A stretch of DNA of 64,000 bases from an uncultured Anaerolineales bacterium (lineage in GTDB: Bacteria > Chloroflexota > Anaerolineae > CG2-30-64-16). A model generated the notes under the pieces. That model did not search any database. It saw only the letters and a list, made by a program, of their open reading frames with translations, and was not told the origin of the DNA. Positions 31,359-51,137 of this stretch are shown in pieces; positions within the stretch are counted from its first letter, which is position 1; each line of letters opens with the position of its first letter. The stretch spans positions 5,031 to 69,030 of the forward strand of contig CAZELR010000006.1 of NCBI GenBank assembly GCA_964513075.1, written 5' to 3'. A program made the position numbers and the translations under genes.

Positions 31359-31390
31359 CGTGTTTAGGAATTATGTAAACAGGTGAAGCT

Positions 31391-32725
31391 ATGAAATCAA
31401 GTCTGTCCACAACCATTCTAAAATTGCTCGTTGTTGCTATCGCGGGAACCATCCTGGCGTTGGCAGCTTTCGGCATCGGTGTCAGTGTTGGCGCCGCAGC
31501 CCGCCCCGCCCCCCTGCCCTCACAGGAGGCAGCGGCCCCAGCAGTCTGCGCACCCACGCCACTCTCAGCTAACGAACTGGCGCCTGATACCAAGCCGCCC
31601 GCTGCTACGCCGACTCCTGCCGCGCGAACCACAGCGCCCGCGGCCGGTAAAGATACGTCAGAGGGTCCTTTAGACATGGCTCTCTTCAACGAAGCCTGGA
31701 ATCTACTCGAGGAGCAGTTTTACGGCGATTTACCCACTGGCGAAGATATCACTTATGCAGCTATTCGCGGCGTGCTGGAAAGCCTGGGCGATCAACATAC
31801 CGCCTTCCTGACCCCTAAACAGGCCGAACAAGAGAATTCCGTCATGCAGGGCGAATTTGAGGGAATCGGCGCGGGCGTTGCGCGGGCTGAGGGGGGCGGC
31901 GTCGAGATCAAATACCTCTATGACGAACAGCCTGCTCAGAAAGCCGGCGTCAGAGTGGGTGATGTAATCATTGCAGTCAACGGAGCAGATGTCACGAAGC
32001 TTGACCTCACCGATGCAATCGCCTTGATTCGGGGGCCGCGCGACACGAAGGTCATCCTGTCGATCCAGCGCAAAGACCAGGAACCGTTTGATCTGACCGT
32101 AACGCGGGCACGCATCGAGATTCCGGTGGTTGAGACCAAGACGTTGGCGGATGGCAAGGTCGAATATATCGCATTGGCCGAGTTCAGTAGTGTTGCGCCG
32201 AAACGGCTCGCTGAAGCGCTGAATCAGGCGCTGGACCGCAAGCCGACGGGGATCATTCTCGATCTGCGCGGTAATCCAGGTGGCTGGCTCGACGCTGCCG
32301 TCAGTATCGGTAGTTACTTTGTTCCCGATGGAAACATTGTCATTGAGCGATTCAAGGACCAGCCTGAGCAGACTTACTCCCGAAAAGGCCGTTACCTCTT
32401 GGGCGATATTCCTCTGGTCGTGCTGGTCGATGGTGGCAGCGCCAGCGCGTCTGAGATTGTCGCCGGAGCCATCCAGGACGCCGGCACCGGCGTCCTGATC
32501 GGAGAGACGACCTACGGCAAAGGTTCAGTGCAACTTCCCAATAGCTTGAGCGATGGCTCGCAGCTCAGAGTCACCATCGCGCGTTGGTTCACGCCCAAGG
32601 ATCGCGAGATTCACGAAAAGGGGTTGGTCCCCGACATTGAGGTGCCGATTACCCAGGAGGATATCGAAGCGGAGCGGGACCCTCAACTGGACCGCGCCGT
32701 TGAGTATCTTCTGACTGGCAAATAA
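31391..32725 (+). CDS. ctpA: S41A carboxyl-terminal protease (CtpA), copy 2
   Basis: TM plus P/A-rich linker, FEGIGA, LDLRGNPGG, SASASEIVAG, TYGKG. Confidence 0.9.
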   Translation: MKSSLSTTILKLLVVAIAGTILALAAFGIGVSVGAAARPAPLPSQEAAAPAVCAPTPLSANELAPDTKPPAATPTPAARTTAPAAGKDTSEGPLDMALFNEAWNLLEEQFYGDLPTGEDITYAAIRGVLESLGDQHTAFLTPKQAEQENSVMQGEFEGIGAGVARAEGGGVEIKYLYDEQPAQKAGVRVGDVIIAVNGADVTKLDLTDAIALIRGPRDTKVILSIQRKDQEPFDLTVTRARIEIPVVETKTLADGKVEYIALAEFSSVAPKRLAEALNQALDRKPTGIILDLRGNPGGWLDAAVSIGSYFVPDGNIVIERFKDQPEQTYSRKGRYLLGDIPLVVLVDGGSASASEIVAGAIQDAGTGVLIGETTYGKGSVQLPNSLSDGSQLRVTIARWFTPKDREIHEKGLVPDIEVPITQEDIEAERDPQLDRAVEYLLTGK

Positions 32726-32744
32726 CTCATCCGAAGAGGTTCCG

Positions 32745-33221
32745 GTGACAAAGCAAAACGAGCAAGGCACCAAGCGCGTTGCCACCAATCGCAAGGCGCT
32801 GCACGACTACTTCATCGAAGACACCTTTGAAGCCGGGATCGCTTTGACCGGCACGGAGATCAAGTCAGTGCGGGCATCGGCGGTGAATCTGCGCGATGGC
32901 TTTGTAGTCATCAAGAATCATGAAGCCTGGCTGTTGAATGTGCACATCTCACCCTACAGCTTCGGCAATCGCGAGAATCACGAGCCGCGCCGCGAGCGCA
33001 AGCTACTGCTGCATCGCCAGGAAATCCGAAAACTGCTCAGCAAAGTCTCGGAGCGCGGCTGGACGATTGTGCCGTTGACTATGTACCTGAAGGAGGGACG
33101 CGCCAAGGTTGAAATTGCGTTAGTGCGCGGCAAGCGGCTCTATGATAAACGCGATGCCGTAGCTGAACATGATGCGGATCGGGAGTTACAGCGCGCGATT
33201 AAAGAGTGGGACCGCGAGTAG
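32745..33221 (+). CDS. smpB: SsrA-binding protein
   Basis: Motifs NRKALHDY, EAGIAL.GTEIKS, RKLLLHR.EI, GKRLYDKR. Confidence 0.97.
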   Translation: MTKQNEQGTKRVATNRKALHDYFIEDTFEAGIALTGTEIKSVRASAVNLRDGFVVIKNHEAWLLNVHISPYSFGNRENHEPRRERKLLLHRQEIRKLLSKVSERGWTIVPLTMYLKEGRAKVEIALVRGKRLYDKRDAVAEHDADRELQRAIKEWDRE

Positions 33222-33227
33222 CGCTGC

Positions 33228-33256
33228 TTGCCTTGAAACCGGGCTTATGGTATACT
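33228..33256 (+). promoter_or_regulatory. ssrA promoter
   Basis: TTGCCT, 17 bp, TATACT with extended TGn. Confidence 0.7.
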
Positions 33257-33267
33257 TCTCAGCATAT

Positions 33268-33681
33268 GGGGATGAATGGTTTCGACGGGGCAAATAGGTC
33301 GTAAGCTGCAAGCCGAGGCGCTCTCACCTCGCAAATCCAGAGCAAAAACACAACTGCCAACACAGGCAAAATGTTCACCTTCCCCTTCGCTCGCACCAAC
33401 GCCATGGCGCTGGCTGCGTAACGAGGAGAGGCTCTGAACAAACTGGTCGCCTAGCGACCACGGTGCCCTCGCCGGGGCCAGGCGGCGACGAGGTGCATCG
33501 TCATAGACCGTAAGGTGCAGTCCGCAGATGCCGATATGCGGGACTAAGATCTTCGGCTAGCTGAGCTAGTGGACAGTGGTCACTGCTGGACCGCTCGGTG
33601 AAATCCAAATCAGAGACTAAGCTTGTAGGCGCTTGCGGTCGTTTGTTTCGGACCCGGGTTCGACTCCCGGCATCTCCACCA
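33268..33681 (+). ncRNA. ssrA: tmRNA
   Basis: 5' GGGGATGAATGGTTTCGAC; 3' CCGGGTTCGACTCCCGG CATCTCC ACCA; acceptor stem with G3-U. Tag ORF 33356-33421 = ANTGKMFTFPFARTNAMALAA*. Follows smpB. Confidence 0.96.
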
Positions 33682-33724
33682 AAAAGTAAGGCCCGATCTG
33701 CGGAGATCGGGCCTTACTTTTTGG
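33679..33724. terminator. Bidirectional intrinsic terminator after ssrA
   Basis: CCAAAAAGTAAGGCCCGATCT-GCGG-AGATCGGGCCTTACTTTTTGG, a 21-bp perfect inverted repeat. Confidence 0.92.
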
Positions 33725-33738
33725 GCGTAACCGGCTCC

Positions 33739-33767
33739 TTGCATCTCTCCAGGGCCTATGCTATGAT
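33739..33767 (+). promoter_or_regulatory. sigma70-type promoter upstream of the IMPase/CysQ gene
   Basis: TTGCAT, 17 bp, TATGAT with extended TGn. Confidence 0.65.
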
Positions 33768-33828
33768 CCCGTTCATCGAGTATAAATAACACTCGCTACA
33801 ACACTCGGCCCGAGAAGAAGACAATACT

Positions 33829-34710
33829 GTGAACTCCGATATTGAGACGGCCGCATCGCCGCTGGTTGCGCCTAACTTCAGTCAGGAATTGAAGTCAGCA
33901 ATTCGCCTGGCGCGTGAGGCAGGCGCTATCGTCAAGACATTCTATGATGTGCCGCTGACAGTCCGCTGGAAAGATCCCACGGATCCCGTCACAGAGGCGG
34001 ATCGTGCGGTGAATGCGTACCTGGTCAAGCAGTTCAGCCAGCTCTTTCCGGCCGATGGGGTCATGGCCGAGGAATCGAAGGAGGACCTCTCTCGCCTGCA
34101 GCGCGAGCGTGTCTGGATCATCGATCCGCTGGACGGCACAGCAGAGTTTATCGCGCATAACGGCGAGTTCTGCATCATGATTGGACTGGCGCTGGCGGGC
34201 CGGCCCGTCGTAGGCGTGGTGTACCAGCCCATCGATGATATTCTCTATGCCGCAGCACTGGGCACTGGCGCCTTTGTCGAAGAGTTTGGCGCCCGCTATC
34301 GTTTGAGTGTCTCGAAACAGCAGGAGATCAAAAAGCTGCGCTTAGTTGTGAGTCGCTCGCATCGCCCACCGCTCGTTGACAGTGTCATTGCGCGCATGGG
34401 CCTCCAGCGCGAGCGCGCCATCGGCAGCGTTGGCCTCAAAATCGGCTTGATTGCGCGCGGTCGGGCCGAATTTTATGTGCATCCCAATGCTGGCACCAAA
34501 GAATGGGACACGTGTGCCCCTGATATTATCGTTCGTGAAGCTGGCGGCACGATGACTGACTGTTGGGGCCGCCCTCTGCGTTACAATCAAACGGACGTCG
34601 TGCGCCGCTTTGGTGTTTTGGCCAGTCATCGCATACTGCACAACCAGATTGCTGATGCCGTGGGAGAAGTCCTGGACGAAGCCGGCGTCGATCCGGACTT
34701 TGGATTCTAA
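33829..34710 (+). CDS. cysQ: Inositol monophosphatase family, CysQ-like 3'(2'),5'-bisphosphate nucleotidase
   Basis: Motifs PVTEAD, WIIDPLDGTAEF, VVSRSH, GSVGLK, KEWDTCA. Confidence 0.82.
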   Translation: MNSDIETAASPLVAPNFSQELKSAIRLAREAGAIVKTFYDVPLTVRWKDPTDPVTEADRAVNAYLVKQFSQLFPADGVMAEESKEDLSRLQRERVWIIDPLDGTAEFIAHNGEFCIMIGLALAGRPVVGVVYQPIDDILYAAALGTGAFVEEFGARYRLSVSKQQEIKKLRLVVSRSHRPPLVDSVIARMGLQRERAIGSVGLKIGLIARGRAEFYVHPNAGTKEWDTCAPDIIVREAGGTMTDCWGRPLRYNQTDVVRRFGVLASHRILHNQIADAVGEVLDEAGVDPDFGF

Positions 34711-34712
34711 GC

Positions 34713-35591
34713 ATGGTTGTTCCCGGTTGGTTGAAGCCCCCCGCTTGGGTCGACCAGAGCGACGCCGACACGGCTGAACGGGTCGGACTTGCCGCCTCTC
34801 GCGAAACACCGATCTTCTTGCGCGAAGTTACGAGCTGGGACCTGCGTTGGCAGCGCATGCTGTTTCAAGTCTTGCTGCCGCCCCAGTTATTGATCGCGTA
34901 TCGAATCGATCCAATCAAGCTAACTGATGTCGAAGGCCGCCCGGTGGTTTTCACCCGGGCTGGAAGCAACCGCAGCAGTTTCCGGCTGGAGCTCTTTCAT
35001 GCCGGAGATAGCACCGAACCGATGGCCGAGATTGAGATGTGTGACACCACCTTCAATCAGATCGAGGTCGTCTGGGTGTCGCTGCAGGACCCGTTTGCGC
35101 CGCGTTTCGACATTGATGTCCTGCCTAGTGGCGAGTCTACAGCGCGCGGCACGACCGGCCGAAATCTGACCGCAGAAGCAGCCGCCAAAGCCGCTGGCCT
35201 GAGTCCAGGCCAGATTCGCCGCGGGCTCCGCTCCCTCAACTGGCTGGCCGAACGCCTGGAGACCTTGATGCTTTGTCTGAACCAGCGCGAGTACATCGTC
35301 CAGCCTCTCTATTATCATACAGCGGCCTTATTCGAACAGTACGGCTTCGGATATACTCTGGGCCAGAGTCGCATGGAAAAAATCCACCAAGCATTTGCGC
35401 CGGGAGGCGAACTGTGGTCGCGCCTGGATGGGTCGACACCATTTCGTTGCCCTGAGCAGGCCGATAGCCTTCGCGGCCGCTCTTGGGCAATCCACGATGG
35501 CATTCTCAACCAGCCATGGGATCGCGTGCGCATGGTAAAGCGCCTGGGCATGACTGCCGGCGCGAATACTTGTCCGGGAGTGCCTTGGTAG
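34713..35591 (+). CDS. Conserved hypothetical protein, possible GNAT-like fold
   Basis: QPLYYHTAALFEQYGF resembles GNAT motif B. Other conserved-looking blocks are GRNL.AE..A..AGL.PGQIRRGL and RGRSWAIHDGIL. Confidence 0.5.
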   Translation: MVVPGWLKPPAWVDQSDADTAERVGLAASRETPIFLREVTSWDLRWQRMLFQVLLPPQLLIAYRIDPIKLTDVEGRPVVFTRAGSNRSSFRLELFHAGDSTEPMAEIEMCDTTFNQIEVVWVSLQDPFAPRFDIDVLPSGESTARGTTGRNLTAEAAAKAAGLSPGQIRRGLRSLNWLAERLETLMLCLNQREYIVQPLYYHTAALFEQYGFGYTLGQSRMEKIHQAFAPGGELWSRLDGSTPFRCPEQADSLRGRSWAIHDGILNQPWDRVRMVKRLGMTAGANTCPGVPW

Positions 35592-35616
35592 AGCCAGTCA
35601 AAAAGGAGAAGTCGGC

Positions 35617-36516
35617 ATGGAACAAGTACGTTTCGGTGTGATCGGCGGCAGCGGCGTCTATGACATGGCGCAGCTAAGCAATGTGCGTGACGTTCGGCTC
35701 GATACGCCGTTTGGTGCGCCTTCAGATGCCTACATCATTGGTGACATCGATGGTCAGTCCGTCGCTTTTCTGCCACGCCATGGCCGCGGCCATCGCATCA
35801 GCCCAACGCATCTGAACAACCGCGCCAATATTTATGGCTTCAAGATGTTGGGAGTGGAGTACCTGATCTCTATCAGCGCCTGCGGCAGCCTGCAGCCGCA
35901 GTACCACCCCGGGGATATCGTGGTGCCGGATCAGTTGTTCGATCGCACGCGGCTGCGGACACTCAGTTTTTTTGATGATCCCAGCGCTGGCACCGGCGGG
36001 TTGGTCGTTCATGTTTCAGTGGCCGAGCCATTTTGCAGTTATCTCAGTCGCGTGTGTGTTGAGGCAGTAGCGGCCACCGGACACAAGGTTCACAGCGGCG
36101 GGACACTGGTAACAATTGAGGGGCCACGCTTCAGCACAAAAGCTGAGAGCCTAGCCTTTCAGCAATTAGGATTTGCCCTCATCGGCATGACAGCCGTGCC
36201 GGAGACATTCCTGGCGCGTGAAGCCGGCATCAGCTATGCAACCATGGCGCATGTCACGGACTACGATGTCTGGCATTCTACGGAAGCTGCGGTAACGGTA
36301 GAGATGATCGTCCAGCAGCTGCTGGCTAACGCCGAGGTCGCAAAGGAATCAGTCATGAATGCGATCCGCTTGCTGCGCCATGCCCCCCCCTCCCCTCACG
36401 CCGACGCGCTGAAAGATGCCATTATCACCAGTCGCACTGCTATCCCTTCCGAGGCACTGACACGCCTCGACCTTGTGATTGGCAATTATATGAAGGCGCA
36501 AGGCTCCGCGTCGTAA
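35617..36516 (+). CDS. mtnP: S-methyl-5'-thioadenosine phosphorylase
   Basis: Motifs GVIGGSG, TPFG.PSD, PRHGRGH, IEGPRFSTKAES, GMT..PE..LARE, VTDYD.W. Confidence 0.93.
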   Translation: MEQVRFGVIGGSGVYDMAQLSNVRDVRLDTPFGAPSDAYIIGDIDGQSVAFLPRHGRGHRISPTHLNNRANIYGFKMLGVEYLISISACGSLQPQYHPGDIVVPDQLFDRTRLRTLSFFDDPSAGTGGLVVHVSVAEPFCSYLSRVCVEAVAATGHKVHSGGTLVTIEGPRFSTKAESLAFQQLGFALIGMTAVPETFLAREAGISYATMAHVTDYDVWHSTEAAVTVEMIVQQLLANAEVAKESVMNAIRLLRHAPPSPHADALKDAIITSRTAIPSEALTRLDLVIGNYMKAQGSAS

Positions 36517-36561
36517 ATACAAAGGGGGCGAAGAGCTTATTGCTTCGCCCCCTTTGTATTT
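36515..36561. terminator. Bidirectional terminator between mtnP and dsbA
   Basis: AAATACAAAGGGGGCGAAG / CTTCGCCCCCTTTGTATTT, a 19-bp perfect inverted repeat with a 9-nt loop, between convergent genes. Confidence 0.9.
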
Positions 36562-36662
36562 AGATGCGAGATATTTCGCATAGCCTAGTTGGTCTTGAAA
36601 GTTCGTTTAGGTTGCTTTATTCCAATATTCTATTGCTACGCGAAAATTATAACAATACGCTA

Positions 36663-37382
36663 TCAAGGCTTCACCAAGGCCGCATCAATAGCCGCCCTGA
36701 AGGCGCTCACGGGTTGCGCACCCTGAAGCTTCTGCCCATTAATGAAGAAGGTCGGCGTCGCGTTCACGCCCAACGCAGTGCCCTCTGCTGTATCGCTCGT
36801 TACCTTCCCCAGGTGTTGGCCGTCGTCAAGGCATTTATTAAACTGCGCCGTATTCAAGCCAAGCTCGGCCGCGTACTGCTTAAGCGCCGCCCGGTTAAAT
36901 GGGTCACTGCTAACGCCCTGCCGGGCAAATAGTACATCGTGGTAATCCCAGAACTTGCCCTGATCGGCAGCGCACTCAGCGGCAAGGGCCGCCCCGCGCG
37001 TGGTTGTGCCACCAATGATGAAATGCTTGAACTCAAAACGTACTTTCCCTGTTGACTCATACTCTTCGCGCAGCTGTACACCCTGATTCGCGGCAAAGGC
37101 GGCACAATGGCTGCACCCGAAATCGGAGTAACCCACAATCTTCACGGGAGCATCGACTGGGCCCCAAGCAGCGCCCTCGCCGACGCGATCGGTCGCCACA
37201 ATCGGCGCCTGCGTAGCCCGAATTGCTATCCAGATCAAACCGGCCGCCACCAGCACGACTGCCGCCATCACGCCCAACAATAGTCTGCGCGAGCTTGCAG
37301 AGGTCCTGGCTGGAACCTTGGCCGGCGCTCTCGCTGCGCCCTGCGGCTTACTGTTCTTGGGCAACTGTGTTCGCTTCGCCAT
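36663..37382 (-). CDS. DsbA-family thiol-disulfide oxidoreductase, membrane anchored
   Basis: N-terminal TM, SDFGCSHC, QGKFWDYHD, GVNATPTFFING. Start 37382 lies 8 nt after GGAGAG. Confidence 0.88.
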   Translation of the reverse strand: MAKRTQLPKNSKPQGAARAPAKVPARTSASSRRLLLGVMAAVVLVAAGLIWIAIRATQAPIVATDRVGEGAAWGPVDAPVKIVGYSDFGCSHCAAFAANQGVQLREEYESTGKVRFEFKHFIIGGTTTRGAALAAECAADQGKFWDYHDVLFARQGVSSDPFNRAALKQYAAELGLNTAQFNKCLDDGQHLGKVTSDTAEGTALGVNATPTFFINGQKLQGAQPVSAFRAAIDAALVKP

Positions 37383-37444
37383 CTTCATTACTCTCCAGCA
37401 AACAGGAATGGGTTCCGTGGCAACCACTGGCGCCACAAAGAGTT

Positions 37445-37501
37445 AGTATACCATAAGCAATTCAGGCGTCAATTGACAAACCGGTGCCTTTGCCTTATCA
37501 T
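37445..37501. promoter_or_regulatory. Back-to-back divergent sigma70-type promoters (dsbA and the O-antigen-ligase operon)
   Basis: On +: TTGACA 37473-37478, 17 bp, TATCAT 37496-37501. On -: TTGACG 37472-37467, 16 bp, extended TGG-TATACT ending at 37445. Confidence 0.72.
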
Positions 37502-37535
37502 GTCTGAGCTTCAGGCCGAGAATAGACGCTGACAC

Positions 37536-38972
37536 ATGAACGCTTATCTGCCCTTTCCTGGCAACGCCTCTCGCAGCAAACGGTTCGTTGCGGGTGGTAT
37601 TCTGCTGGGATGTCTGGTCTATCTGCTGGCCAGGGCGCCGCTTGGACTGGCCGCAATAGGTTTAGCCGCGGCATTAGCTGTCACCAGCATACTTCTTTCG
37701 CCGACGATAGGGATTGTGCTGGTAGCTACAGCGATACCGTTTGGCAGATTGATGCCGGTCCTACCCGGCATCAATCTGGTGGATGTGCTGGTCGGATTCA
37801 CGCTGCTCGCCTGGCTGCTCCAGGGCATGGCCAGGCGGCGAATCGTCTTCCATCCCCCTCCCCTTACGTGGCCCTTGCTGGCGTTCGTGTGGGTGTGCGG
37901 TCTCAGCCTGACCCAGGCAAGCTCGTGGCGAGAAGGCGTGACCGAATGGATGAAGTGGGTGGAGTTTGCCGTACTCTATCTCTTGGGCGCACAAGTACTG
38001 AACCGGCGCAGCAATCGGATCGTGATCGCCTCGCTCGTGCTCGCAGGTATCGCTCAAGCAGGCATCGGTGCTTATCAGTTTTTGGGCCAGGTGGGGCCTG
38101 AGGCCTTCACCCTGTCGAGCCGCTTCCTGCGCGCTTACGGCACTTTCCAACAGCCCAATCCTTACGCCGGCTATCTCGGTTATCTGGCGCCGCCGGCTGT
38201 CAGCTTGGCGGTTGCTCTGGGAGGGCGTTGGTGGGCCAGCCGGCGGCCGCGTGACCTGGCCGCTGCTGCGGGGTGGGCGGTTAGTGGCGGTGCGTTAGGT
38301 GCTGGCATTTTGATGAGCTGGTCGCGCGGCGCATGGATTGCGCTGACAGCGAGCATGGTGGTAGTAGCGGGTCTGCGGAGCCGGCGGAGTACAGCAGCAA
38401 TACTTGCCGCGGGGCTACTTCTGGTCCTGCTCACGACATTAGCGGGAACGGGCTGGCTGCCCAATAGCGTAGTCTCTCGAATCAGCAATCTGGGAAGCAC
38501 ACTTGTCGGTTCCGATCTGGCGCAGACGGAAATCACCGATGCTAATTTCTCGGTGCTGGAACGTTTGGCTCATTGGCAAGCCGGCATAAGGATGTTTGAG
38601 GATCATCCATGGCTTGGGGTCGGCATCGGAAATTTCGGTGTGACCTATACCGCATATGCCCCGCCCCACTGGTACGAGCCGCTGGGTCATGCGCATAACA
38701 TATTCATCAACTTCCTGGCCGAAACCGGCGCGCTGGGCCTGGGCGCCTTTGGGGTCTTTTGGCTCGCGATCGGTTGGCTGACGGGGCGCCAAGCCATCCG
38801 CGGGAACAGCTATCAACGCGCGCTGGCGTTGGGCATCCTGGGCACTTGGGTCTATCTCAGCATACACAGCATTTTTGATAATCTGTTCGTACAACATATC
38901 CAGCTTCAATTAGCTCTGCTGTTGGCCGCGCTGACAGCCGAAAATACGCAGACCATCTTGAGGACACATTGA
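37536..38972 (+). CDS. O-antigen ligase / Wzy-like family membrane protein
   Basis: Multi-TM with RAYGTF.QPNP.AGYL, SWSRGAW, ER..HW, GVGIGNF, HAHN. Confidence 0.85.
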   Translation: MNAYLPFPGNASRSKRFVAGGILLGCLVYLLARAPLGLAAIGLAAALAVTSILLSPTIGIVLVATAIPFGRLMPVLPGINLVDVLVGFTLLAWLLQGMARRRIVFHPPPLTWPLLAFVWVCGLSLTQASSWREGVTEWMKWVEFAVLYLLGAQVLNRRSNRIVIASLVLAGIAQAGIGAYQFLGQVGPEAFTLSSRFLRAYGTFQQPNPYAGYLGYLAPPAVSLAVALGGRWWASRRPRDLAAAAGWAVSGGALGAGILMSWSRGAWIALTASMVVVAGLRSRRSTAAILAAGLLLVLLTTLAGTGWLPNSVVSRISNLGSTLVGSDLAQTEITDANFSVLERLAHWQAGIRMFEDHPWLGVGIGNFGVTYTAYAPPHWYEPLGHAHNIFINFLAETGALGLGAFGVFWLAIGWLTGRQAIRGNSYQRALALGILGTWVYLSIHSIFDNLFVQHIQLQLALLLAALTAENTQTILRTH

Positions 38973-43774: not shown

Positions 43775-46048
43775 CTACCCAACCATGCTGAGTCCAATCC
43801 GCCCGCGCTCACGGTCAATGCTGATCACGGTGACATCGACCACGTCGCCTACACTCACTACCGCGTGTGGGTTCCGCACGAACTGCTTGGCCATCTTGCT
43901 GACGTGCACCAGCCCATCCTGTTTGACGCCGATATCGACAAAAGCGCCAAAATCAACAACGTTACGCACCGTGCCCTTCAGAACCAGCCCCTCGGCCAAG
44001 TCGTCAATGCTCAGCACGTCGCGGCGCAGGATCACTGGCGGTAGATCTGAACGCGGGTCGCGGCCCGGCCGCAACAACGCCTCCACGATGTCATGCAAAG
44101 TCGGCTCACCGATGCCGAGAAGCGAGGCGGTGGCCGACCAAACATCGGTCCCATTTTCCTCGCACCACTTTCGAAGCCGCTCCGGGAGGTCATGCATGCG
44201 CAGGTTCAGGCCTGCAAGCTCTAGCAGCGCCCTGGTGGCGTCATAGCTCTCCGGATGGATCGTCGTATTGTCCAGTGGGTTGCGACTATCCGATACACGC
44301 AGGAAGCCGGCGGCCTGCTCGAACGCCTTCGGTCCCAGTCCTTTCACCTTCTTGAGTTCGGAGCGCGAAGCAAAGGGGCCATTTTCATCCCGGTGTGCGA
44401 CGATGGCGCCTGCCACCTTCTTGCTGATGCCCGCCACGTAGCTTAGTAGCGCCGCTGATGCAGTATTGACGTCAACACCAACATAATTGACGACTGACTC
44501 CACTACCGCATCTACCGCCCCGGCCAGCGTCTTCTGGTCCACGTCGTGTTGATAGAGGCCCACACCAATGCTTTGTGGATCAATCTTGACCAGCTCGGCC
44601 AATGGATCCTGCAACCGCCGGGCGATCGAAACCGCGCCGCGCATAGAGACGTCCAGATCGGGGAACTCAGCGCGAGCCACATCGGACGCGGAGTAAACCG
44701 ACGCGCCCGCTTCACTGACCATCACATAAGCAAGATGAGACGCAGTCTGCACACGGCTGGACGCGGACGAACGCGGATTATCTTTTTGATCTGCTCTGTG
44801 TGAATCCGTGTGAATCTGTGTCCCCTGAATCAACTCCGCGACTAACGCCTCGGTCTCACGACTGGCAGTGCCGTTTCCGATGGCGATCACGCTGATCCGG
44901 TCCTGGTCGATCAACCCAGCAAGAATGTGCAGCGATTTGTCGCGGTCGTTGCGCGGCTCGTGGGGGTAGATCGTGGCTGTGTGTAGCAGCTTGCCGGTGG
45001 CATCTACTGTCGCCACCTTGCAGCCGGTACGGAAACCAGGGTCGATACCCATCACAGCGCGCTCCTTCAGCGGCGGCTGGAGCAGCAAGTTGCGCAGATT
45101 GGCTGCAAAAACCTGGATGGCATGATCATCAGCGTAATCGCCCAACTGCCCACTCACCTCGCGCTCAACCGAGGGGCGTAGGAGGCGCTCGTAGCCATCT
45201 TCAACGGCCAGGCGCACCTGCTGTCCCGCAGCCGTTGCCGGCATTGCAATCCAGGCCGCGGCCACATCGTTGACGATGGAAGCATCAGGGGTTTCGATAG
45301 TCACCTTAAGGCTGCCGTCCGCCGCTCCTCGCTTGAGCGCCAACCATTGGTGCGGCTGGACTGCTCGGAGCGCAGTGCGGAACTCATAATAGACGCGATA
45401 ACGCCCCTCCTTATCAGCATCATCGTCCGCGCGCCGGCTGATGACGAATCCCTCCGCGGCGAAACGCCGGCGCACCAGGCCCCGCGTCGACGCATCGTCG
45501 CTCGCCTGCTCCCCAAGGATATCGCGCGCACCGGCCAGGGCAGCCGCCGCATCCGGCACCTGGTCGGTAATATACTCCGCAGCCCATTGTAGGGGCGATC
45601 CCTCCATGGTCGCCGTGGCAGAGGCAGACACGAGGGCGCCGCCTCGACATGCGGCCAGTAACACCTGCGCCAGCGGCTCCAACCCGCGCTCACGCGCGAT
45701 TTGGGCGCGAGTCTGGCGCTTGGGCTTATAGGGGCGGTAGAGGTCCTCCACGGCCTGAAGCGTAGCTGCAGCGTCCAGTTGCGCGGCCAGTTCGTCAGTC
45801 AGCTTGCCCTGCTCGGTAATCTCAGCCTTCACCGCTACCTTGCGTTCAGCCAGCTTGCGCAGGTAGTCCAGTCGGGTTTGGATGTCCCGAATCTGCACTT
45901 CATCCAGCCCGCCGGTAACCTCCTTGCGGTAACGCGCAATGAAGGGGATGGTGTTGCCGTCGTCCAGGAGCCTAACGGTGGCAGTGACCTGGGAAACGGA
46001 AATCTTAAGCTCGTGAGCGATGAGTTCGTTGATGGGAGGTAGAATCAA
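43775..46048 (-). CDS. tex: Tex-family transcription accessory protein (YqgF-like, HhH and S1 domains)
   Basis: Motifs IPFIARYRKE.TG.LDE, GIDPGFRTGCK, IGNGTASRETE, EAGASVYSAS, LQDPLAELVKIDP, FGAFVDIG. Confidence 0.95.
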   Translation of the reverse strand: MILPPINELIAHELKISVSQVTATVRLLDDGNTIPFIARYRKEVTGGLDEVQIRDIQTRLDYLRKLAERKVAVKAEITEQGKLTDELAAQLDAAATLQAVEDLYRPYKPKRQTRAQIARERGLEPLAQVLLAACRGGALVSASATATMEGSPLQWAAEYITDQVPDAAAALAGARDILGEQASDDASTRGLVRRRFAAEGFVISRRADDDADKEGRYRVYYEFRTALRAVQPHQWLALKRGAADGSLKVTIETPDASIVNDVAAAWIAMPATAAGQQVRLAVEDGYERLLRPSVEREVSGQLGDYADDHAIQVFAANLRNLLLQPPLKERAVMGIDPGFRTGCKVATVDATGKLLHTATIYPHEPRNDRDKSLHILAGLIDQDRISVIAIGNGTASRETEALVAELIQGTQIHTDSHRADQKDNPRSSASSRVQTASHLAYVMVSEAGASVYSASDVARAEFPDLDVSMRGAVSIARRLQDPLAELVKIDPQSIGVGLYQHDVDQKTLAGAVDAVVESVVNYVGVDVNTASAALLSYVAGISKKVAGAIVAHRDENGPFASRSELKKVKGLGPKAFEQAAGFLRVSDSRNPLDNTTIHPESYDATRALLELAGLNLRMHDLPERLRKWCEENGTDVWSATASLLGIGEPTLHDIVEALLRPGRDPRSDLPPVILRRDVLSIDDLAEGLVLKGTVRNVVDFGAFVDIGVKQDGLVHVSKMAKQFVRNPHAVVSVGDVVDVTVISIDRERGRIGLSMVG
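44751..44823. repeat. In-frame inverted micro-repeat element (period 10) in tex
   Basis: Left arm ACACGGCTGG/ACGCGGACGA/ACGCGGATTA; right arm CTGCTCTGTG/TGAATCCGTG/TGAATCTGTG; 17 of 20 positions pair on +. Confidence 0.8.
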
Positions 46049-46108
46049 AATGGAAGCTCCGTTCGCGTCAATATGCCCGGCACTCTCGAAAAGCGCCGGC
46101 CAAGCAAA

Positions 46109-48832
46109 TCACCCCTTCACGCGCTTCTGTAATTCATACAGCTTGTTGAGCGCGGCCAGCGGACTGAGGCTATTCACGTCGAGGGCGCGCAGCTCAGCAA
46201 TCACCGGATCTTCAGCGGAGAAAAGCGGGAGCTGGTGTAGGGTGGCAGGCAGAACCGAACGCCGCGGGCCAGCCGCGCCGGAGGCTTCCAGATCGGCCAA
46301 AATTTCCTGGGCGCGGGCGATCACCGGCTTAGGCAGACCGGCAAGCTGCGCCACATGAACACCATAAGAGCGGTCGGCTGCGCCGGGTGCAATCTTGTGC
46401 AGAAAGACAACGGTTTCGCCTTGCTCGGCCACGGCTACATTGAAGTTGACCACATGCGGCAGCCGCTCGGCCAGGTCGGTCAGTTCGTGGTAATGCGTGG
46501 CGAACAGCGTCTTCGCACGCAGGCCGGGGTGATTGTGAATGTACTCAACAACGGCCCAGGCAATCGCCAGACCATCATAAGTGCTGGTGCCGCGACCGAT
46601 CTCATCGAGGATCAGCAGCGACCGGCTGGTGGCATGGTGCAGAATGTTGGCAGCCTCCACCATCTCAACCATAAAGGTCGATTGGCCGCGTGCAATCTCA
46701 TCTGAGGCACCGATGCGGGTGAAGATGCGATCCACGAGCCCGATGTGCGCCGACTCGGCCGGCACGAAAGCCCCGATCTGTGCCAGCAGCACGATTAACG
46801 CCACCTGCCGTAGAGCCGTCGATTTGCCGGCCATATTGGGGCCGGTGAGGATAATGATGGCCTGTTCGGGTGAGAGGTACGCGTCGTTAGGCGTGAAAGG
46901 CTCCCCGGTCAGAAACTTCTCCACCACGGGATGCCGACCGGCCTTGATATCGATAATGCCGTCATCAGCCAGCCTGGGACGAATGTAGCGATTTACCTCA
47001 GCAACCTCAGCCAGCGCCGCAGCAACATCCAGGTCGGCGACAGCCGCCGCGATCGCAAGCAGTCGAGGCGCAGCCGCCGCGATCTGGGCTAGCACCCCGC
47101 GAAAGATCTGCCCTTCCAATTCCAGGATGCGTTCCTCAGCGTTGAGCACCAGTGATTCGTATTCCTTCAAGTCCGGCGTGATGTAGCGCTCCGCATTGAC
47201 CAGTGTCTGCTTGCGAATGTAATCCGCCGGCACCAGGCCGGCGTTGGCGGTGGTGACCTCGATGTAATAACCAAAGACCTTGTTGTAGCCAACCTTCAAC
47301 GACTTGATGCCAGTGCGCGTCCGCTCGACCGATTCCAGGTTAGCGATCCACATCTTGGCGTCGCGCGTAGCAAGATGAATACCGTCCAACTCGGCTGAAA
47401 AACCGGGGCGAATGATCCCGGTCGTGGCCAACGTCGCGGGCGGGTCGTCGGTAATGGCCTGCGCGAGAAGCGTGGCAATATCGGGGCAGGATTGAAGGTT
47501 CAAAGTTGAAGGCGGAGGGTCAGCGTTGATTGATCTTTCAACTTTTAGCTTTGAGCCTGTAGCCTGTAACTGATCTACGCGAGCCAACGCTTCGCGGATG
47601 CCCAACAGGTCACGCGGAAGTGCAATGCCCTGAGCGCAGCGGTTGGTCCAGCGCTCCAGGTCGCCGAGACCGCGCAGGACTTGGCGAAGCCCGGCGCGCA
47701 AGATGCCGTCTTGCTGCCAGGCAGCCACGGCGTCGAGCCGAGCATCGATAGCCGCGACATCCAGCAGCGGCTGACTAAGCCGCTTGCGCAGCAGGCGGCC
47801 GCCCATCGGGGTCAGGGTAGCGTCCAATACCCCCAAGAGTGAGCCTTGGGTGGAGCCGCCGCGGAGACTCTCGGTCAACTCCAGGTTGCGCCGCGTGGCC
47901 TCGTCAAGGGTCATGAACTCGGATGTGCTGTAAGTGCGCAAGCCGGCAAGCTGGGGCAGGCTGTCTTTTTGCGTTTCCTGTAGATACTGAAGCAGCGCGC
48001 CCGCGGCCCGAACCGCCAATGAACTATCGTCACAGCCGAAACCGGCCAGGGATGCGGCCCTGAAATGATCGAGCAGCGCCTGGCGCGCAGTGGTCTCTTC
48101 GAAGCGCCAGGCCACGTAAGGGGTAATATGGTAGGCTTGGGCAATCTGCACCGGCAGGGCATCGGAGGGATGGCGCTGGAGGCGCGACGCGGTTTGCGCG
48201 CTGCGGCCTTCGGGGCCACCCGACGACATGCCGGGCTCCTCTGTGCCTCCGCTCCTCTGTGCCCAGCGCGGGTCTTTGGCAGGATAAAGAAGCTCCGCCG
48301 GCGCCAGCCGGCTAAGCTCCTCAGAGACGCGGCGCAGGACATCCGCGCCATTGGCAATCTCAGTGACCGCAAACTCGCCGGTGGTGATGTCGGCATAGGC
48401 CAGGCCAGCCCTGAGCAGACGGCCTGTCGGCTCTGAGTCGAGCACCACCGCTACAACGTAATTGTTGCGCTTCTCAGACAGCAGCCCCGGCTCCACGAGG
48501 GTGCCGGGCGTCACGACCCGCCGCACGATGCGCGGCACTAGCTTTTCGCCTTTGGGAGGCTCATTGCCAAGCTGCTCAGCGATAGCTACCTTGTAACCGG
48601 CGTTGATTAGCTTGGCAATGTAGGTGTCGACCGCGTGGTAGGGCACACCGGCCAAGGGAACGCGCTGGTCCGCGCCCACGGGTCGCGAGGTGAGCACAAC
48701 ATCACAGACCGACGCGACAAGCTTGGCATCGTCATCGAAGGTCTCGTAAAAGTCACCCAGGCGGAAGAAAAGCACGATATCCGGGTACTGTTTCTTCAAC
48801 GCCAGGTACTGGGAACGCATAGGTGTCGTCAT
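46109..48832 (-). CDS. mutS: DNA mismatch repair protein MutS
   Basis: Motifs FFRLGDFYETF, GPNMAGKST, DRIFTRIGA.D....GQSTFMVEM, DEIGRGTST, FATHYHEL, SYGVHVA.LAG. Confidence 0.97.
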   Translation of the reverse strand: MTTPMRSQYLALKKQYPDIVLFFRLGDFYETFDDDAKLVASVCDVVLTSRPVGADQRVPLAGVPYHAVDTYIAKLINAGYKVAIAEQLGNEPPKGEKLVPRIVRRVVTPGTLVEPGLLSEKRNNYVVAVVLDSEPTGRLLRAGLAYADITTGEFAVTEIANGADVLRRVSEELSRLAPAELLYPAKDPRWAQRSGGTEEPGMSSGGPEGRSAQTASRLQRHPSDALPVQIAQAYHITPYVAWRFEETTARQALLDHFRAASLAGFGCDDSSLAVRAAGALLQYLQETQKDSLPQLAGLRTYSTSEFMTLDEATRRNLELTESLRGGSTQGSLLGVLDATLTPMGGRLLRKRLSQPLLDVAAIDARLDAVAAWQQDGILRAGLRQVLRGLGDLERWTNRCAQGIALPRDLLGIREALARVDQLQATGSKLKVERSINADPPPSTLNLQSCPDIATLLAQAITDDPPATLATTGIIRPGFSAELDGIHLATRDAKMWIANLESVERTRTGIKSLKVGYNKVFGYYIEVTTANAGLVPADYIRKQTLVNAERYITPDLKEYESLVLNAEERILELEGQIFRGVLAQIAAAAPRLLAIAAAVADLDVAAALAEVAEVNRYIRPRLADDGIIDIKAGRHPVVEKFLTGEPFTPNDAYLSPEQAIIILTGPNMAGKSTALRQVALIVLLAQIGAFVPAESAHIGLVDRIFTRIGASDEIARGQSTFMVEMVEAANILHHATSRSLLILDEIGRGTSTYDGLAIAWAVVEYIHNHPGLRAKTLFATHYHELTDLAERLPHVVNFNVAVAEQGETVVFLHKIAPGAADRSYGVHVAQLAGLPKPVIARAQEILADLEASGAAGPRRSVLPATLHQLPLFSAEDPVIAELRALDVNSLSPLAALNKLYELQKRVKG
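47492..47569. repeat. In-frame inverted heptamer-repeat element in mutS
   Basis: TTGAAGG TTCAAAG TTGAAGG, 22-nt spacer, CTTTCAA CTTTTAG CTTTGAG CCTGTAG CCTGTAA. Confidence 0.8.
48158..48263. repeat. In-frame hairpin with 16-bp tandem repeat in mutS
   Basis: GCTCCTCTGTGCCTCC/GCTCCTCTGTGCC tandem at 48235-48263; 48245-48263 pairs with 48158-48183 via bulged helices. Confidence 0.55.
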
Positions 48833-48833
48833 A

Positions 48834-51137
48834 TTACGCGCCCAACACTACTTGTCCATAGGGATCGCCGTAGAGCACATAGGCTAACCAGGTGGGATTG
48901 GCGGCATCAGCCTGCTTGATAGCCAGACGCGCCGCGTGAAACGCCTGGCCAAGCGGTTGCTGTTTCCCCTCAAACGCGCCGAGGCCCCACAGGCGATCAT
49001 AGAACTCCCGGGCGAACTGTGCGGCCAGCACGTCATTCACCTCCCAGAGTGCGCCGAGGAAGGCGCTAGCCTCACAATCAAGAAACGTCTCGGCCCAGCC
49101 GCCCAGCTGCGTCAGGCCGATGCCCACCCGCCCGGAATGGCAAGCATTAAGAAATACAATGGGCTTGCTCTTGCGAATATACGGCTTTAAGGCGCCAACT
49201 GCAACAGGGGTCAGGAACTCGCTTCCCAGTTTGAGCTTCGACTCGTTGGCGCTGTCAGCGTTGAAGTTGCCATGACAGGCAAAGTGATAGAGATGGGTGC
49301 GGCCGGCCTGCAGAGCATCGTTAACCTCATCCAGCGATTTGAGCGGACCGCTGAGGCTGACCTCCCACTGACGACGATGCAGCTCGGTAAAGTAATCGGA
49401 CTCGGCCTGGGCAGCCTGCAGGTTGTCGGGCGGCGCCACCCACACGCCCTGAGTAAGCTTCACGCGGTCGGGCGCGCCGCGGCCGGCCACCCAGCGCGAG
49501 AGCCGGAACGTCTCGCACAAAGGTGGGTCGGTCGGCACCTCCCAAGGTTCATCCTCGCCCGGATCTTGCGGCGTAACCAACTCCCAGGGAATCCATGGAT
49601 CGTCTGTAGTAACCAGCATACTTTGCCCACGATATTTCTGGCGCAAGACCTTGCTGTATTCACGTTTCAGCTCATCCGAGAAAAGCTGATCGTAAAGCTG
49701 CACGCCGATAGCGGACAACTCCTGGTTCGCACGCCGCGTCTCGTCGGCAGGGCGCGTCGCGACCGATTTTTTGGCCAGGTCACTGAGGCGATTAAAGATC
49801 GGCTGCAGGAAGGTCAACGGATCGTCTCGCAGCAACTTCGTGCCGACCCGCTTGAAGTTGTAGTCGCCGCCCCCGGGCGAATGCAGCATGTAATCCAACG
49901 TCTTACGGTCAGCCGAAAGCATGATGCGCAGCTCCAGGTCAGGCGCTCTCGCCTCTGTGCCCAGCACCGGCGAGGCAATCGGCGCCAGCGGCACCACAGC
50001 GTTGGTCAATTGCTTCATCGCGGCTGCGTCTTCTACCACCTCGGCCTCGAACGAGACCGTCAGTATCCGACGACTGAACTGCTCAAAGTCTACGCTAACG
50101 CGCTTCGTTCCGGCCGACTCCGGCTTGAGAAAGAAGATCAGAGGCTCGCAGTCGCGCTCTTTTTCGATCTTGACCTGTCGAGCATAGGAGCCAACGCCGC
50201 TCACCGCTTCACCGCCGATGGTCTCATCGGTCACCTCAAAGCCCTCCGGCCGGATGACAACTGTCAGCGGGCTAAGTTTAAGGCTCATGCGAGCCTCATC
50301 GGCAATGCCTCTGGCGCCGGATTGAAAATGACCGGCCACATGGACAATCAACGGCACAGCGCCCTGATCAATCAGCACTTTGTTGGGGAAGTGGACGTTA
50401 GCGTAGCGGATCACATCGTCGGCCACCGGTTCAAGCGAACGGGTTTCAGTGATCCCGTACGATGGGGAGATCGGCGCCTTGGCAACAGGCCCGGCGCCTC
50501 CTAACGATGGCGGGAATATCCCACCGCGCGTCTGCTGGCCGGGAGCCCACATCTGTGCATCCCGATCATCCAGGAGCCGCACGACGCTGGGATAGCCACG
50601 CAGCAGGACCTTGATAGCCCGCAGGTAGGCCTCAGCAACCGCGCGGTCAACAGCGCGCTCCGAATGGGCTGCACGTAGTGCGCTAAGCTGCGCCAGTTCG
50701 TCGCCGGCAAGACGCGCCTGATGCGTCTCGACCAGTGCGTCGATCTGGGCGGTCAGGCCGATCGGATCACGATACCGGCGAAATTCTACAATGAATACCA
50801 TGCGCTGCAAGACAAGCTCGCGCTGTTCTGCGGATAGCGAACCGACTCCGCCAACACCCCGAGAGCCAAGCCTGGGCTGAAGGCTCACCTGGCCGCCCTC
50901 CAATAATCCCGTCACCTCGGCAGGCAGGGCTTGCCGCACCGGCCAGAGGGTGTTGAGGAACGCGCTGGCCGAACCGGCCGCGTTGATATCGTCTTTTGTG
51001 GCGATATCCGGCCCATACTCGCGCACGGCCTCCTCAATTACGCTACGAACCTCTACCGGCAGCGTCGGCCACGCGGCCAGAATGCCGTCAAGGATTGGGA
51101 TGATTGCGTTTGATACGGCTGCTGCTGCAAAATTCAT
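48834..51137 (-). CDS. CHAT (caspase HetF-associated) domain protease with N-terminal helical region and central beta-rich domain
   Basis: Motifs PWIPWEL, HFACHG (His622), VFLNACHS (Cys666), FLGALWEVND, WLAYVLYGDP. No signal peptide or TPRs. Confidence 0.88.
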   Translation of the reverse strand: MNFAAAAVSNAIIPILDGILAAWPTLPVEVRSVIEEAVREYGPDIATKDDINAAGSASAFLNTLWPVRQALPAEVTGLLEGGQVSLQPRLGSRGVGGVGSLSAEQRELVLQRMVFIVEFRRYRDPIGLTAQIDALVETHQARLAGDELAQLSALRAAHSERAVDRAVAEAYLRAIKVLLRGYPSVVRLLDDRDAQMWAPGQQTRGGIFPPSLGGAGPVAKAPISPSYGITETRSLEPVADDVIRYANVHFPNKVLIDQGAVPLIVHVAGHFQSGARGIADEARMSLKLSPLTVVIRPEGFEVTDETIGGEAVSGVGSYARQVKIEKERDCEPLIFFLKPESAGTKRVSVDFEQFSRRILTVSFEAEVVEDAAAMKQLTNAVVPLAPIASPVLGTEARAPDLELRIMLSADRKTLDYMLHSPGGGDYNFKRVGTKLLRDDPLTFLQPIFNRLSDLAKKSVATRPADETRRANQELSAIGVQLYDQLFSDELKREYSKVLRQKYRGQSMLVTTDDPWIPWELVTPQDPGEDEPWEVPTDPPLCETFRLSRWVAGRGAPDRVKLTQGVWVAPPDNLQAAQAESDYFTELHRRQWEVSLSGPLKSLDEVNDALQAGRTHLYHFACHGNFNADSANESKLKLGSEFLTPVAVGALKPYIRKSKPIVFLNACHSGRVGIGLTQLGGWAETFLDCEASAFLGALWEVNDVLAAQFAREFYDRLWGLGAFEGKQQPLGQAFHAARLAIKQADAANPTWLAYVLYGDPYGQVVLGA

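What the first reader, a model, noticed from the sequence alone, without database searches (positions are those of the whole stretch)
47492..47569. Heptamer inverted-repeat element encoded inside MutS, apparently replacing native sequence
Seen: three 7-mers (TTGAAGG TTCAAAG TTGAAGG) face five 7-mers across a 22-nt spacer. The inner three pairs form a 21-position stem with 2 mismatches and 4 G-T pairs on +. The 78-bp element is in frame and reads LQATGSKLKVERSINADPPPSTLNLQ. Compared with E. coli MutS from memory, this segment is only about 5 aa longer, so the element seems to have replaced a helix rather than simply inserted. Known analogy: Rickettsia palindromic elements, which insert in frame in genes. 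From memory and unverified, similar 7-nt inverted tracts flank four-helix-bundle (TIGR02436) genes. Inferred: an empty non-autonomous mobile unit that donates peptide sequence to a core repair protein.
Basis: partly seen in the sequence, partly recalled or inferred. Interest (0 to 1): 0.66.

Follow-up and report, generated by a model that had tools for sequence, protein, structure and literature searches.

The report
Decayed heptamer-repeat hairpin inside mutS
A 78-base stretch of the DNA-repair gene mutS is a worn-out, gene-less copy of a hairpin element built from 7-base repeats; intact copies are scattered through related bacteria, sit in frame in other essential genes, and form the two arms around a small four-helix-bundle gene.

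Summary
Window 47492-47569 holds 3 + 5 heptamers in inverted orientation around a 22-nt spacer. It lies in frame in mutS (46109-48832, minus strand) and reads LQATGSKLKVERSINADPPPSTLNLQ. It is the only period-7 signal in the 64 kb.

It is a decayed, ORF-less member of a dispersed class of heptamer-array hairpins. The same MutS loop carries better-preserved arrays in many Anaerolineae-type orthologues, from at least five unit families. More basal orthologues have ordinary sequence there.

CCTTCAA-type arrays, often with an inverted GGTTGAA-type partner, occur in many Chloroflexota and other phyla. Some sit in frame in GlyQS, AroA, UvrD, MetG, MutS2 and Tex.

In 70 metagenome loci chosen only by a TIGR02436-like protein, 26 have heptamer arrays on both sides and 21 of those are inverted. 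The arm units are of the same RRGTTNA type as here.

The window copy no longer folds significantly (z about -1). It evolves faster than the rest of MutS and is most likely a translated, functionless passenger that displaced about 15 native residues. How such elements move was not established. A mutator-switch role is not supported for this copy.

The parts
47492..47512 (-). Arm of three heptamers. On the mutS coding strand it reads CCTTCAA CTTTGAA CCTTCAA and encodes PPSTLNLQ. This is the better-preserved, stop-free arm.
   Evidence: The same CCTTCAA units occur in 3 to 8 or more copies in L002, L127 and many Chloroflexota loci.
47513..47534 (-). 22-nt spacer (loop). It encodes part of RSINADP, and the model puts it in a low-confidence coil.
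   Evidence: pLDDT below 50 at residues 436-442.
47535..47569 (-). Arm of five degenerate heptamers. On the coding strand it reads TTACAGG CTACAGG CTCAAAG CTAAAAG TTGAAAG and encodes LQATGSKLKVER. The model shows it as a continuation of helix 406-434.
   Evidence: It corresponds to GTGCAGG TGACAGG TTCAAAG TTGAAGG in L002.
47486..47491 (-). Probable outermost stem residue. GCAGGA on the + strand pairs with the CCTG of the outer units.
   Evidence: DNA fold. An outer CAGG...CCTG pair is also kept in L002 and in the L003 footprint.
46109..48832 (-). Host gene mutS, 907 aa. The element lies at residues 421-446, in core domain III, opposite E. coli MutS residues of about 378-395.

Best explanation
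The segment is a decayed, gene-less copy of a heptamer-array hairpin element: two inverted runs of 7-nt units of the RRGTTNA / TNAACYY type (here TTGAAGG / CCTTCAA) around a short loop.

Intact relatives occur in two forms:
- 'Empty' hairpins, found between genes and in frame inside housekeeping genes of Chloroflexota and other phyla.
- The two arms that bracket small TIGR02436/PF05635 four-helix-bundle genes. This is the S23p/Avd-like gene type also carried by ORF-bearing 23S rRNA intervening sequences.

Shown:
- The element entered a permissive loop of MutS core domain III in an ancestor shared with P0002, P0006, P0091 and P0110.
- It lies in frame.
- About 15 native residues are missing.
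- The copy has lost most of its pairing, and the peptide it encodes changes faster than the rest of MutS.

Inferred:
- It is translated as a helix extension plus a disordered loop and does nothing for MutS. Selection only keeps it free of stops and frameshifts.
- Turnover at the site comes from repeated insertion, slipped-strand change of unit number (only net multiples of 3 nt survive) and imprecise deletion that takes neighbouring codons with it.
- The empty hairpins are the non-autonomous form of the gene-bearing cassette.

The insertion chemistry is unknown.
For: Same site, many orthologues:
- In 45 aligned MutS proteins the stretch varies from 45 to 117 aa and is filled with 7-aa-periodic peptides.
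- DNA of 10 orthologues shows arrays of TTGAAGG/CCTTCAA (window, L001, L002, L127), GGGATTG/CCCAATC (L128), CTGGAAA/TTTCCAG (L006) and GGGGTCA plus ACGCATC (L005). L126 has native sequence.
- Unit families are patchy on the MutS tree.

Decay of the window copy:
- L002 folds at -39.8 kcal/mol (z -4.3) and other Chloroflexota copies at z -4.4 to -10. The window and L001 copies fold at z -1.0.
- The element peptide is 14/26 identical to P0002, against 89% for the whole protein.

Dispersal:
- Period-7 arrays number 287, against at most 35 for periods 5, 6 and 8-11.
- Of 64 adjacent array pairs, 13 have units complementary at 6/7 or better, against about 1% by chance.
- L081 carries GGTGACAGGTTGAAAGTTGAAGGTTCC, nearly identical to the L002 mutS arm.

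In-frame copies in real genes: GlyQS, an ABC transporter, AroA, UvrD, a GT2 glycosyltransferase, a radical SAM protein, MutS2 and MetG.

Presence/absence: the Tex site is empty in the window but filled in L001, L002 and L004.

Link to TIGR02436:
- All 6 genes met by chance are flanked by arrays.
- In 70 protein-selected loci, 26 have arrays on both sides and 21 are inverted. Array density is 2.15/kb near the gene and 0.14/kb further away, and the arm units are of the same type.

Literature: the Coxiella 23S intervening sequence with an S23p ORF carries 2-3 tandem heptamers whose number varies between strains (PMC4990558). PF05635 resembles the Avd protein of diversity-generating retroelements (PMC10053308).

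Structure: helix 406-434, then a coil with pLDDT below 50 at residues 436-442.
Against: - There is no second copy in the 64-kb window, and no TIGR02436 gene in it. Activity in this genome is therefore unshown.
- I found no target-site duplication and no conserved terminus. The left boundary differs between unit families.
- Many adjacent array pairs are not complementary, for example GGGGTCA with ACGCATC, and GACGAAG with ACGCAAY. The hairpin is therefore not universal.
- L004 has an 8-nt unit at the same site.
- Mismatches between arms show no bias toward the gene strand (28 versus 50). It is open whether the pairing matters in RNA or in DNA.
- Translation and retention in mRNA are inferred from the open frame. 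No RNA runs were available.
Confidence: 0.72

Rival explanations
1. Locally grown simple-sequence repeats. Heptamer arrays arise and change in place by polymerase slippage in a loop that tolerates anything. Nothing moved, and the inverted arrangement comes from strand-switch copying or from chance.
For: - Heptamers are reported as the commonest long repeat class in bacteria, with slippage proposed as the cause (cited in PMC4679880 and PMC4692102).
- Arrays have very many different units.
- Different families occupy the same loop with different left boundaries.
- No target-site duplication or fixed terminus was found.
- An 8-nt unit occurs at the same site in L004.
Against: - The same compound architecture and a nearly identical arm sequence occur at unrelated loci and genomes.
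- Inverted pairs make up 20% of adjacent pairs, against about 1% by chance.
- The same arm type brackets TIGR02436 genes with a 16-fold local enrichment.
- The Tex site is cleanly empty or filled among close relatives.

This rival is partly compatible with the main explanation, since slippage surely acts after arrival.
Confidence: 0.2
2. Mutator contingency switch. A 7-nt unit is not a multiple of 3, so gain or loss of one unit would switch mutS off and on and give a reversible mutator state.
For: - L005 carries about 20 near-perfect GGGGTCA units in frame in mutS.
- Arrays also sit just upstream of the mutS start and at a second site in the gene.
- From established knowledge, loops longer than about 4 nt are poorly corrected by MutS-dependent repair.
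Against: - The window copy has no run of identical adjacent units; Tandem Repeats Finder sees only 2.1 copies.
- The contig at word depth 116 shows no length variant, and identical fragments occur in other samples. Contigs do hide rare variants.
- The same arrays sit in many unrelated housekeeping genes.
- The split mutS genes in L129 and L130 are broken away from any heptamer array, and L130 also has a split Tex. They look like long-read indels.
Confidence: 0.04
3. A functional RNA structure inside the mutS message: a hairpin that sets mRNA stability or translation rate, or an RNase III site as in rRNA intervening sequences.
For: - Intact copies fold very strongly, including the one inside the L002 mutS.
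- In Coxiella the RNase III cut lies at the first heptamer of the intervening sequence (PMC4990558).
Against: - The window copy folds no better than shuffled sequence on the mRNA strand (z -0.8 to -1.0). Its four G-T pairs become C-A mismatches in the mRNA.
- There is no Rfam match.
- The site is empty in many orthologues and holds unrelated units in others.
Confidence: 0.03
4. Chance pattern in ordinary coding sequence.
For: A single weak array is expected about once per 640 kb (0.1 per 64 kb), so the period-7 signal alone is not overwhelming.
Against: The period-7 signal, the inverted match and the motif pairs coincide. Orthologues show clear arrays at the same codons.
Confidence: 0.01

Closest known systems
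ORF-bearing 23S rRNA intervening sequences (Coxiella, Leptospira) carrying the S23p / PF05635 / TIGR02436 gene
   Same: - Inverted ends form a stem around a small four-helix-bundle gene.
- Coxiella has tandem heptamers at the 5' end whose number varies between strains (PMC4990558).
- They are inserted in a tolerant spot of an essential gene and are regarded as selfish.
   Different: - Here the host is a protein-coding gene, there is no ORF inside, and the sequence is translated.
- Intervening sequences are cut out of the rRNA by RNase III.
- The arms here are multi-unit arrays on both sides.
Heptanucleotide tandem repeats of bacteria: cyanobacterial STRR, GGGNATC repeats of Xanthomonas and Nostoc (PMC4692102), TAACTGA repeats of Beggiatoaceae (PMC4679880)
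   Same: - Dispersed arrays of 7-nt units with variable copy number.
- Found in large genomes of cyanobacteria, Bacteroidota and others.
- STRR is also reported inside the RNase P RNA gene (from memory).
   Different: - Those are described as mostly intergenic direct repeats and as under-represented in coding regions.
- Paired inverted arrays in frame in housekeeping genes, and a link to TIGR02436 genes, are not described in the papers I could search.
Rickettsia palindromic elements (RPE)
   Same: Short palindromic repeats inserted in frame in protein genes, translated, and placed in surface regions (from established knowledge).
   Different: - RPEs are 100-150 bp of unique sequence, not arrays of 7-nt units.
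- They are confined to Rickettsia.
- No associated gene-bearing form is known. There is no sequence relation.
REPINs mobilised by RAYT transposases (PMC3116915)
   Same: Two inverted short repeats form a hairpin. They are non-autonomous, dispersed and tied to one small gene type.
   Different: - REPINs are extragenic with fixed sequences of about 20 nt.
- Their partner is a Y1 transposase, not a four-helix-bundle protein.
- A Y1_Tnp gene lies next to mutS in L006, but nothing links it to the arrays.
Small dispersed repeats (SDR) of Nostoc (Elhai et al. 2008, from memory)
   Same: Very small elements that insert into heptamer repeat tracts and occasionally into conserved genes.
   Different: SDRs are 21-27 nt unique sequences. 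This was not checked here.

Membership tests
Heptamer-array hairpin (arms of TIGR02436 cassettes) | Each arm is a tandem run of 7-nt units. | tested here: met
   3 + 5 units. It is the only period-7 signal in the window. The units are degenerate.
Heptamer-array hairpin (arms of TIGR02436 cassettes) | The two arms are reverse complements of each other across a short spacer. | tested here: met
   15 Watson-Crick pairs, 4 G-T pairs and 2 mismatches out of 21, with a 22-nt spacer. Fold significance is lost (z -1.0), whereas intact copies reach z -4 to -10.
Heptamer-array hairpin (arms of TIGR02436 cassettes) | Unit sequence is of the same type as arms that flank TIGR02436 genes. | tested here: met
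   - Window units, rotated: AGGTTGA, AAGTTCA, AGGTTAC, AAGCTCA.
- Cassette arms: GGTTCAA, AGTTGAA, GGTTTGA, AGTTGCA, GGTTACG.
- L038 and L094 have GGTTGAA/CCTTCAA arms.
Heptamer-array hairpin (arms of TIGR02436 cassettes) | Dispersed copies exist in the same and in related genomes. | tested here: inconclusive
   Related genomes: yes. Same genome: only 64 kb was available and it holds no other copy.
Heptamer-array hairpin (arms of TIGR02436 cassettes) | Carries a four-helix-bundle ORF (the full form). | tested here: not met
   The spacer is 22 nt, and there is no TIGR02436-like ORF anywhere in the window. This is the empty form.
23S rRNA intervening sequence | Lies in helix 25 or helix 45 of 23S rRNA and is excised by RNase III. 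| tested here: not met
   It lies in mutS. Excision could not be tested because no RNA runs were available.
Rickettsia palindromic element | Sequence homology to an RPE family consensus, in a Rickettsia host. | not tested
   The host is a Chloroflexota/Anaerolineae-type organism from sludge. No RPE consensus was compared. Only the in-frame palindromic insertion is shared.
REPIN / RAYT system | Extragenic inverted REP pair with a cognate Y1 (RAYT) transposase in the genome. | tested here: not met
   The element is intragenic and made of heptamer arrays. Whether a RAYT gene exists in this genome was not tested. L006 has a Y1_Tnp gene beside mutS.
Phase-variable contingency repeat | An uninterrupted tract of identical units whose length varies within a population. 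| tested here: not met
   There is no run of identical adjacent units beyond 2.1 copies. No length variant appears in contigs of four runs, but contigs hide rare variants.

The most novel reading that the evidence does not exclude
The heptamer-array hairpins are the non-autonomous form of a widespread, uncharacterised mobile element whose full form carries only an Avd-like four-helix-bundle gene (TIGR02436/PF05635).

In this reading the element makes or extends 7-nt arrays at its ends as it moves, possibly through an RNA or single-strand hairpin intermediate with a reverse transcriptase supplied in trans.

It would then account at once for ORF-bearing 23S rRNA intervening sequences, for cyanobacterial STRR-type repeats, for part of the unexplained excess of heptamer repeats in bacteria, and for in-frame peptide inserts in essential proteins such as MutS, Tex, GlyQS, AroA and UvrD.
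Probability: 0.25. Interest if true: 0.85.

Novelty: new variant of a known kind. Interest (0 to 1): 0.6.

Why it matters
Heptamer repeats are the commonest long simple repeat in bacteria, and the S23p/TIGR02436 genes form one of the larger families without a known function. Neither has an accepted explanation.

This locus ties them together. The same arms occur with the gene and without it. They occur between genes, in rRNA according to the literature, and in frame in core housekeeping proteins.

Two practical consequences follow:
- These inserts inflate and diversify protein loops, so they confuse alignments and orthologue length comparisons.
- In relatives with long perfect arrays, they put frameshift-prone tracts inside mutS itself. 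That could matter for mutation-rate evolution even though it is not supported for this copy.

The locus also gives a concrete test system: filled and empty sites in MutS and Tex among sludge Anaerolineae.

Tried and rejected
- A second copy in the window: none, allowing up to 3 mismatches or by period-7 scan.
- Heptamer relics at the second MutS insert (window 48161-48259) and around the mutS start and stop: none.
- Rfam over 46000-49000: only a sub-threshold chance hit.
- Plasmid collection, blastn: no match.
- RNA runs: none listed.
- Length variants in contigs of four sludge and sediment runs: none, though contigs cannot show rare variants.
- Split mutS genes (P0091, P0114) as possible phase-off alleles: the breaks are not at heptamer arrays, and L130 has several broken genes, so I treated them as assembly indels.
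- A strand test on arm mismatches, to decide between RNA and DNA pairing: no clear bias (28 versus 50).
- A test of whether coding copies have fewer perfect TTGAAGG units than non-coding ones: the sample was too small (6 versus 22). What can be read directly is this. At the codon where a perfect array would give GGT TGA, the window, L001, L002 and L127 have TCA and L081 has TCC. GGTTCAA is also a common unit outside genes, so this is weak evidence.
- Literature: no paper holds both 'heptanucleotide repeats' and 'Chloroflexi', and none holds 'TIGR02436'.
- A profile of six TIGR02436 proteins was too divergent for the locus search, so I used three instead.
Full report
OBSERVATION

Window 47492-47569 reads, on the + strand, TTGAAGG TTCAAAG TTGAAGG, then a 22-nt spacer, then CTTTCAA CTTTTAG CTTTGAG CCTGTAG CCTGTAA. 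The three left units pair with the three inner right units through 15 Watson-Crick pairs, 4 G-T pairs and 2 mismatches.

The stretch is 44% G+C in a 61% G+C window. It lies in frame in the minus-strand ORF 46109-48832 and reads LQATGSKLKVERSINADPPPSTLNLQ. That ORF is a full-length MutS. Its best relatives are Anaerolineae/Chloroflexota proteins from metagenomes. Sludge metagenomes hold the exact sequence.

At 16 of 21 period-7 matches this is the only array in the 64 kb, where simulations give 0.1. The motif pair is seen twice against 0.04 expected, and an inverted match this good occurs at 0.24% of positions.

The window holds no second copy. The hairpin is weak: z is about -1 as RNA on the coding strand and -1.6 as DNA on the + strand.

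THE SAME SITE IN ORTHOLOGUES

I aligned 45 MutS orthologues. This stretch varies from 45 to 117 residues and is filled with peptides of 7-residue period, which is what three heptamers encode.

DNA of ten orthologues shows the units directly:
- L002: GTGCAGG TGACAGG TTCAAAG TTGAAGG TTCCGGG, a 13-nt loop, then seven AACCTTC/GACCTTC units.
- L127: a compact 57-nt hairpin, with two TTGAAGG units facing four CCTTCAA-type units.
- L128: GGGATTG facing CCCAATC.
- L006: six CTGGAAA units facing TTTCCAG-type units.
- L005: about 20 GGGGTCA units followed by ACGCATC/ACGCAAT units.
- L004: three copies of an 8-nt unit.
- L126 and other more basal orthologues: ordinary sequence.
- L003: only TTGCAGG...CCTGGAT, which looks like a deletion footprint.

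On a neighbour-joining tree the unit families are patchy. That argues for repeated gain and turnover rather than one event.

The window copy is orthologous to those of P0002, P0006, P0091 and P0110. The element peptide is 14/26 identical to P0002, against 89% for the whole protein.

INSERTION OR REPLACEMENT

Between fixed anchors the segment is 48 aa in the window, 48 aa in the Amarolinea-type outgroup and about 48 in E. coli. It is 35-38 aa in the nearest heptamer-free relatives.

The element encodes 26-28 aa but the net gain is about 11. About 15 native residues are therefore missing.

A plausible route is insertion followed by imprecise deletion. L003 in MutS and the window's own Tex gene both lack a few residues that basal relatives keep.

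PLACE IN THE PROTEIN

The site aligns with E. coli MutS residues of about 378-395, in core domain III. An AlphaFold model (mean pLDDT 69.5) has the left-arm peptide continuing helix 406-434. A coil follows, with pLDDT below 50 at residues 436-442, and then helix 450-459.

DISPERSAL

About 35 are Chloroflexota. The rest are Bacteroidota, cyanobacteria (Moorena, Symploca), Verrucomicrobiota, Planctomycetota, Acidobacteriota and others.

In these loci, period-7 arrays number 287, against at most 35 for any of periods 5, 6 and 8-11. Of 64 adjacent array pairs, 13 have units complementary at 6/7 or better, where chance gives about 1%.

Chloroflexota copies often have the GGTTGAA-type arm just upstream of the CCTTCAA arm. 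They fold strongly, with z from -4.4 to -10. The left arm in L081 is nearly identical to the arm inside the L002 mutS.

Of 285 arrays, 72 lie inside long open frames. Eight host ORFs were checked against Pfam and are real genes: GlyQS, an ABC transporter, AroA, UvrD, a GT2 glycosyltransferase, a radical SAM protein, MutS2 and MetG. A recurring peptide is SKVEG...(F/L)(D/N)L(Q/R)PSTF.

In Tex, next to mutS, the window has an empty site (44105-44191) where L001, L002 and L004 carry inserts of 20-29 aa made of heptamers.

LINK TO FOUR-HELIX-BUNDLE GENES

Looking for inverted arrays further apart, I found small ORFs between them. Two were checked against NCBIfam and match TIGR02436, with E-values of 1e-22 and 3e-25.

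An iterative search over all fetched loci found six such genes, none of them in the window. All six are directly flanked by heptamer arrays.

As an unbiased test I fetched 80 metagenome loci by the protein alone. Of the 70 with both flanks present:
- 26 have arrays on both sides, and 21 of those are inverted.
- 12 have an array on one side only.
- Array density is 2.15/kb within 250 nt of the gene and 0.14/kb further away.
- The arm units (GGTTCAA, AGTTGAA, GGTTTGA, AGTTGCA, GGTTACG and others) are of the same type as the window's.

The literature agrees in part:
- The Coxiella 23S rRNA intervening sequence, which carries an S23p ORF of this family, has 2-3 tandem heptamers at its 5' end. Their number varies between strains, and the RNase III cut lies at the first repeat (PMC4990558).
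- PF05635 resembles Avd, the accessory protein of diversity-generating retroelements (PMC10053308).
- Heptamers are reported as the commonest long repeat class in bacteria (cited in PMC4692102 and PMC4679880).

I found no paper on such elements in Chloroflexota, and none naming TIGR02436.

INTERPRETATION

The window feature is a decayed, empty member of this class. It sits in a permissive MutS loop and is most likely translated and without function for MutS. This is inferred from three things: the open frame, the fast change of the peptide, and the presence of unrelated units or no insert in orthologues.

How the elements arrive is not known. I found no target-site duplication and no fixed terminus. 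Many adjacent arrays are not complementary. Arm mismatches do not show on which strand pairing matters. In-situ slippage surely contributes and remains a partial rival.

A mutator-switch role is attractive for relatives with about 20 perfect units in mutS (L005), but it is not supported here:
- The window copy has no identical adjacent units.
- No variants appear in contigs.
- The same arrays sit in many unrelated genes.
- The broken mutS genes I inspected are broken away from the arrays.

VERDICT

The instance itself is a relic. The class it belongs to, and its link to TIGR02436 genes and to in-frame inserts in housekeeping proteins, is a new variant of known kinds (heptamer repeats and S23p-type intervening sequences) and deserves follow-up.

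Noticed in passing
window 48161-48259 (minus strand; MutS residues 192-224): A second extra segment in MutS, in the connector region, absent from E. coli and modelled with pLDDT below 50. In L002 and L006 the same site holds heptamer arrays, but the window copy has no period-7 signal left.
   Followed up: partly
window 44105-44191 (minus strand; Tex gene 43775-46048): An empty site where the Tex genes of L001, L002 and L004 carry in-frame heptamer inserts of 20-29 aa. L001 has GACGAAG x4 followed by ACGCAAY-type units x6. This is a clean presence/absence polymorphism among close relatives.
   Followed up: yes
L005:11267-11488: About 20 near-perfect GGGGTCA units plus ACGCATC/ACGCAAT units lie in frame inside mutS, adding about 54 aa compared with the window. 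The tract is G-rich and could form a quadruplex, and it would be very prone to slippage.
   Followed up: partly
L004:10001-12712 (mutS, same loop): The unit here is 8 nt (AACGTTCC x3), not 7, so the period is not strictly fixed.
   Followed up: no
L006:12878-13468: A Y1_Tnp (PF01797, IS200/RAYT-type) gene lies directly after mutS in one relative. Nothing links it to the arrays.
   Followed up: no
P0010 (MutS orthologue, 1393 aa): This orthologue carries intein-type domains (PF14528, PF14890), so mutS in this lineage also hosts an intein.
   Followed up: no
L129:2409-5103 and L130:2530-5238: mutS is split into two ORFs. The breaks are not at heptamer arrays, and Tex is also split in L130. These are probably long-read assembly indels.
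   Followed up: yes
window 26770-38912: Several islands of 25-33% G+C in a 61% G+C window, for example 29870-29929 and 36598-36657. This may be foreign or mobile DNA.
   Followed up: no
window 9228-9305: A tandem repeat of GCTGCC, 12.8 copies (period 6 or 12).
   Followed up: no
L211-L236 (IMG/VR contigs): The CCTTCRA x3 pattern occurs in 26 stretches of viral or proviral contigs; three of the stretches lie on one contig (L215, L219, L222).
   Followed up: no
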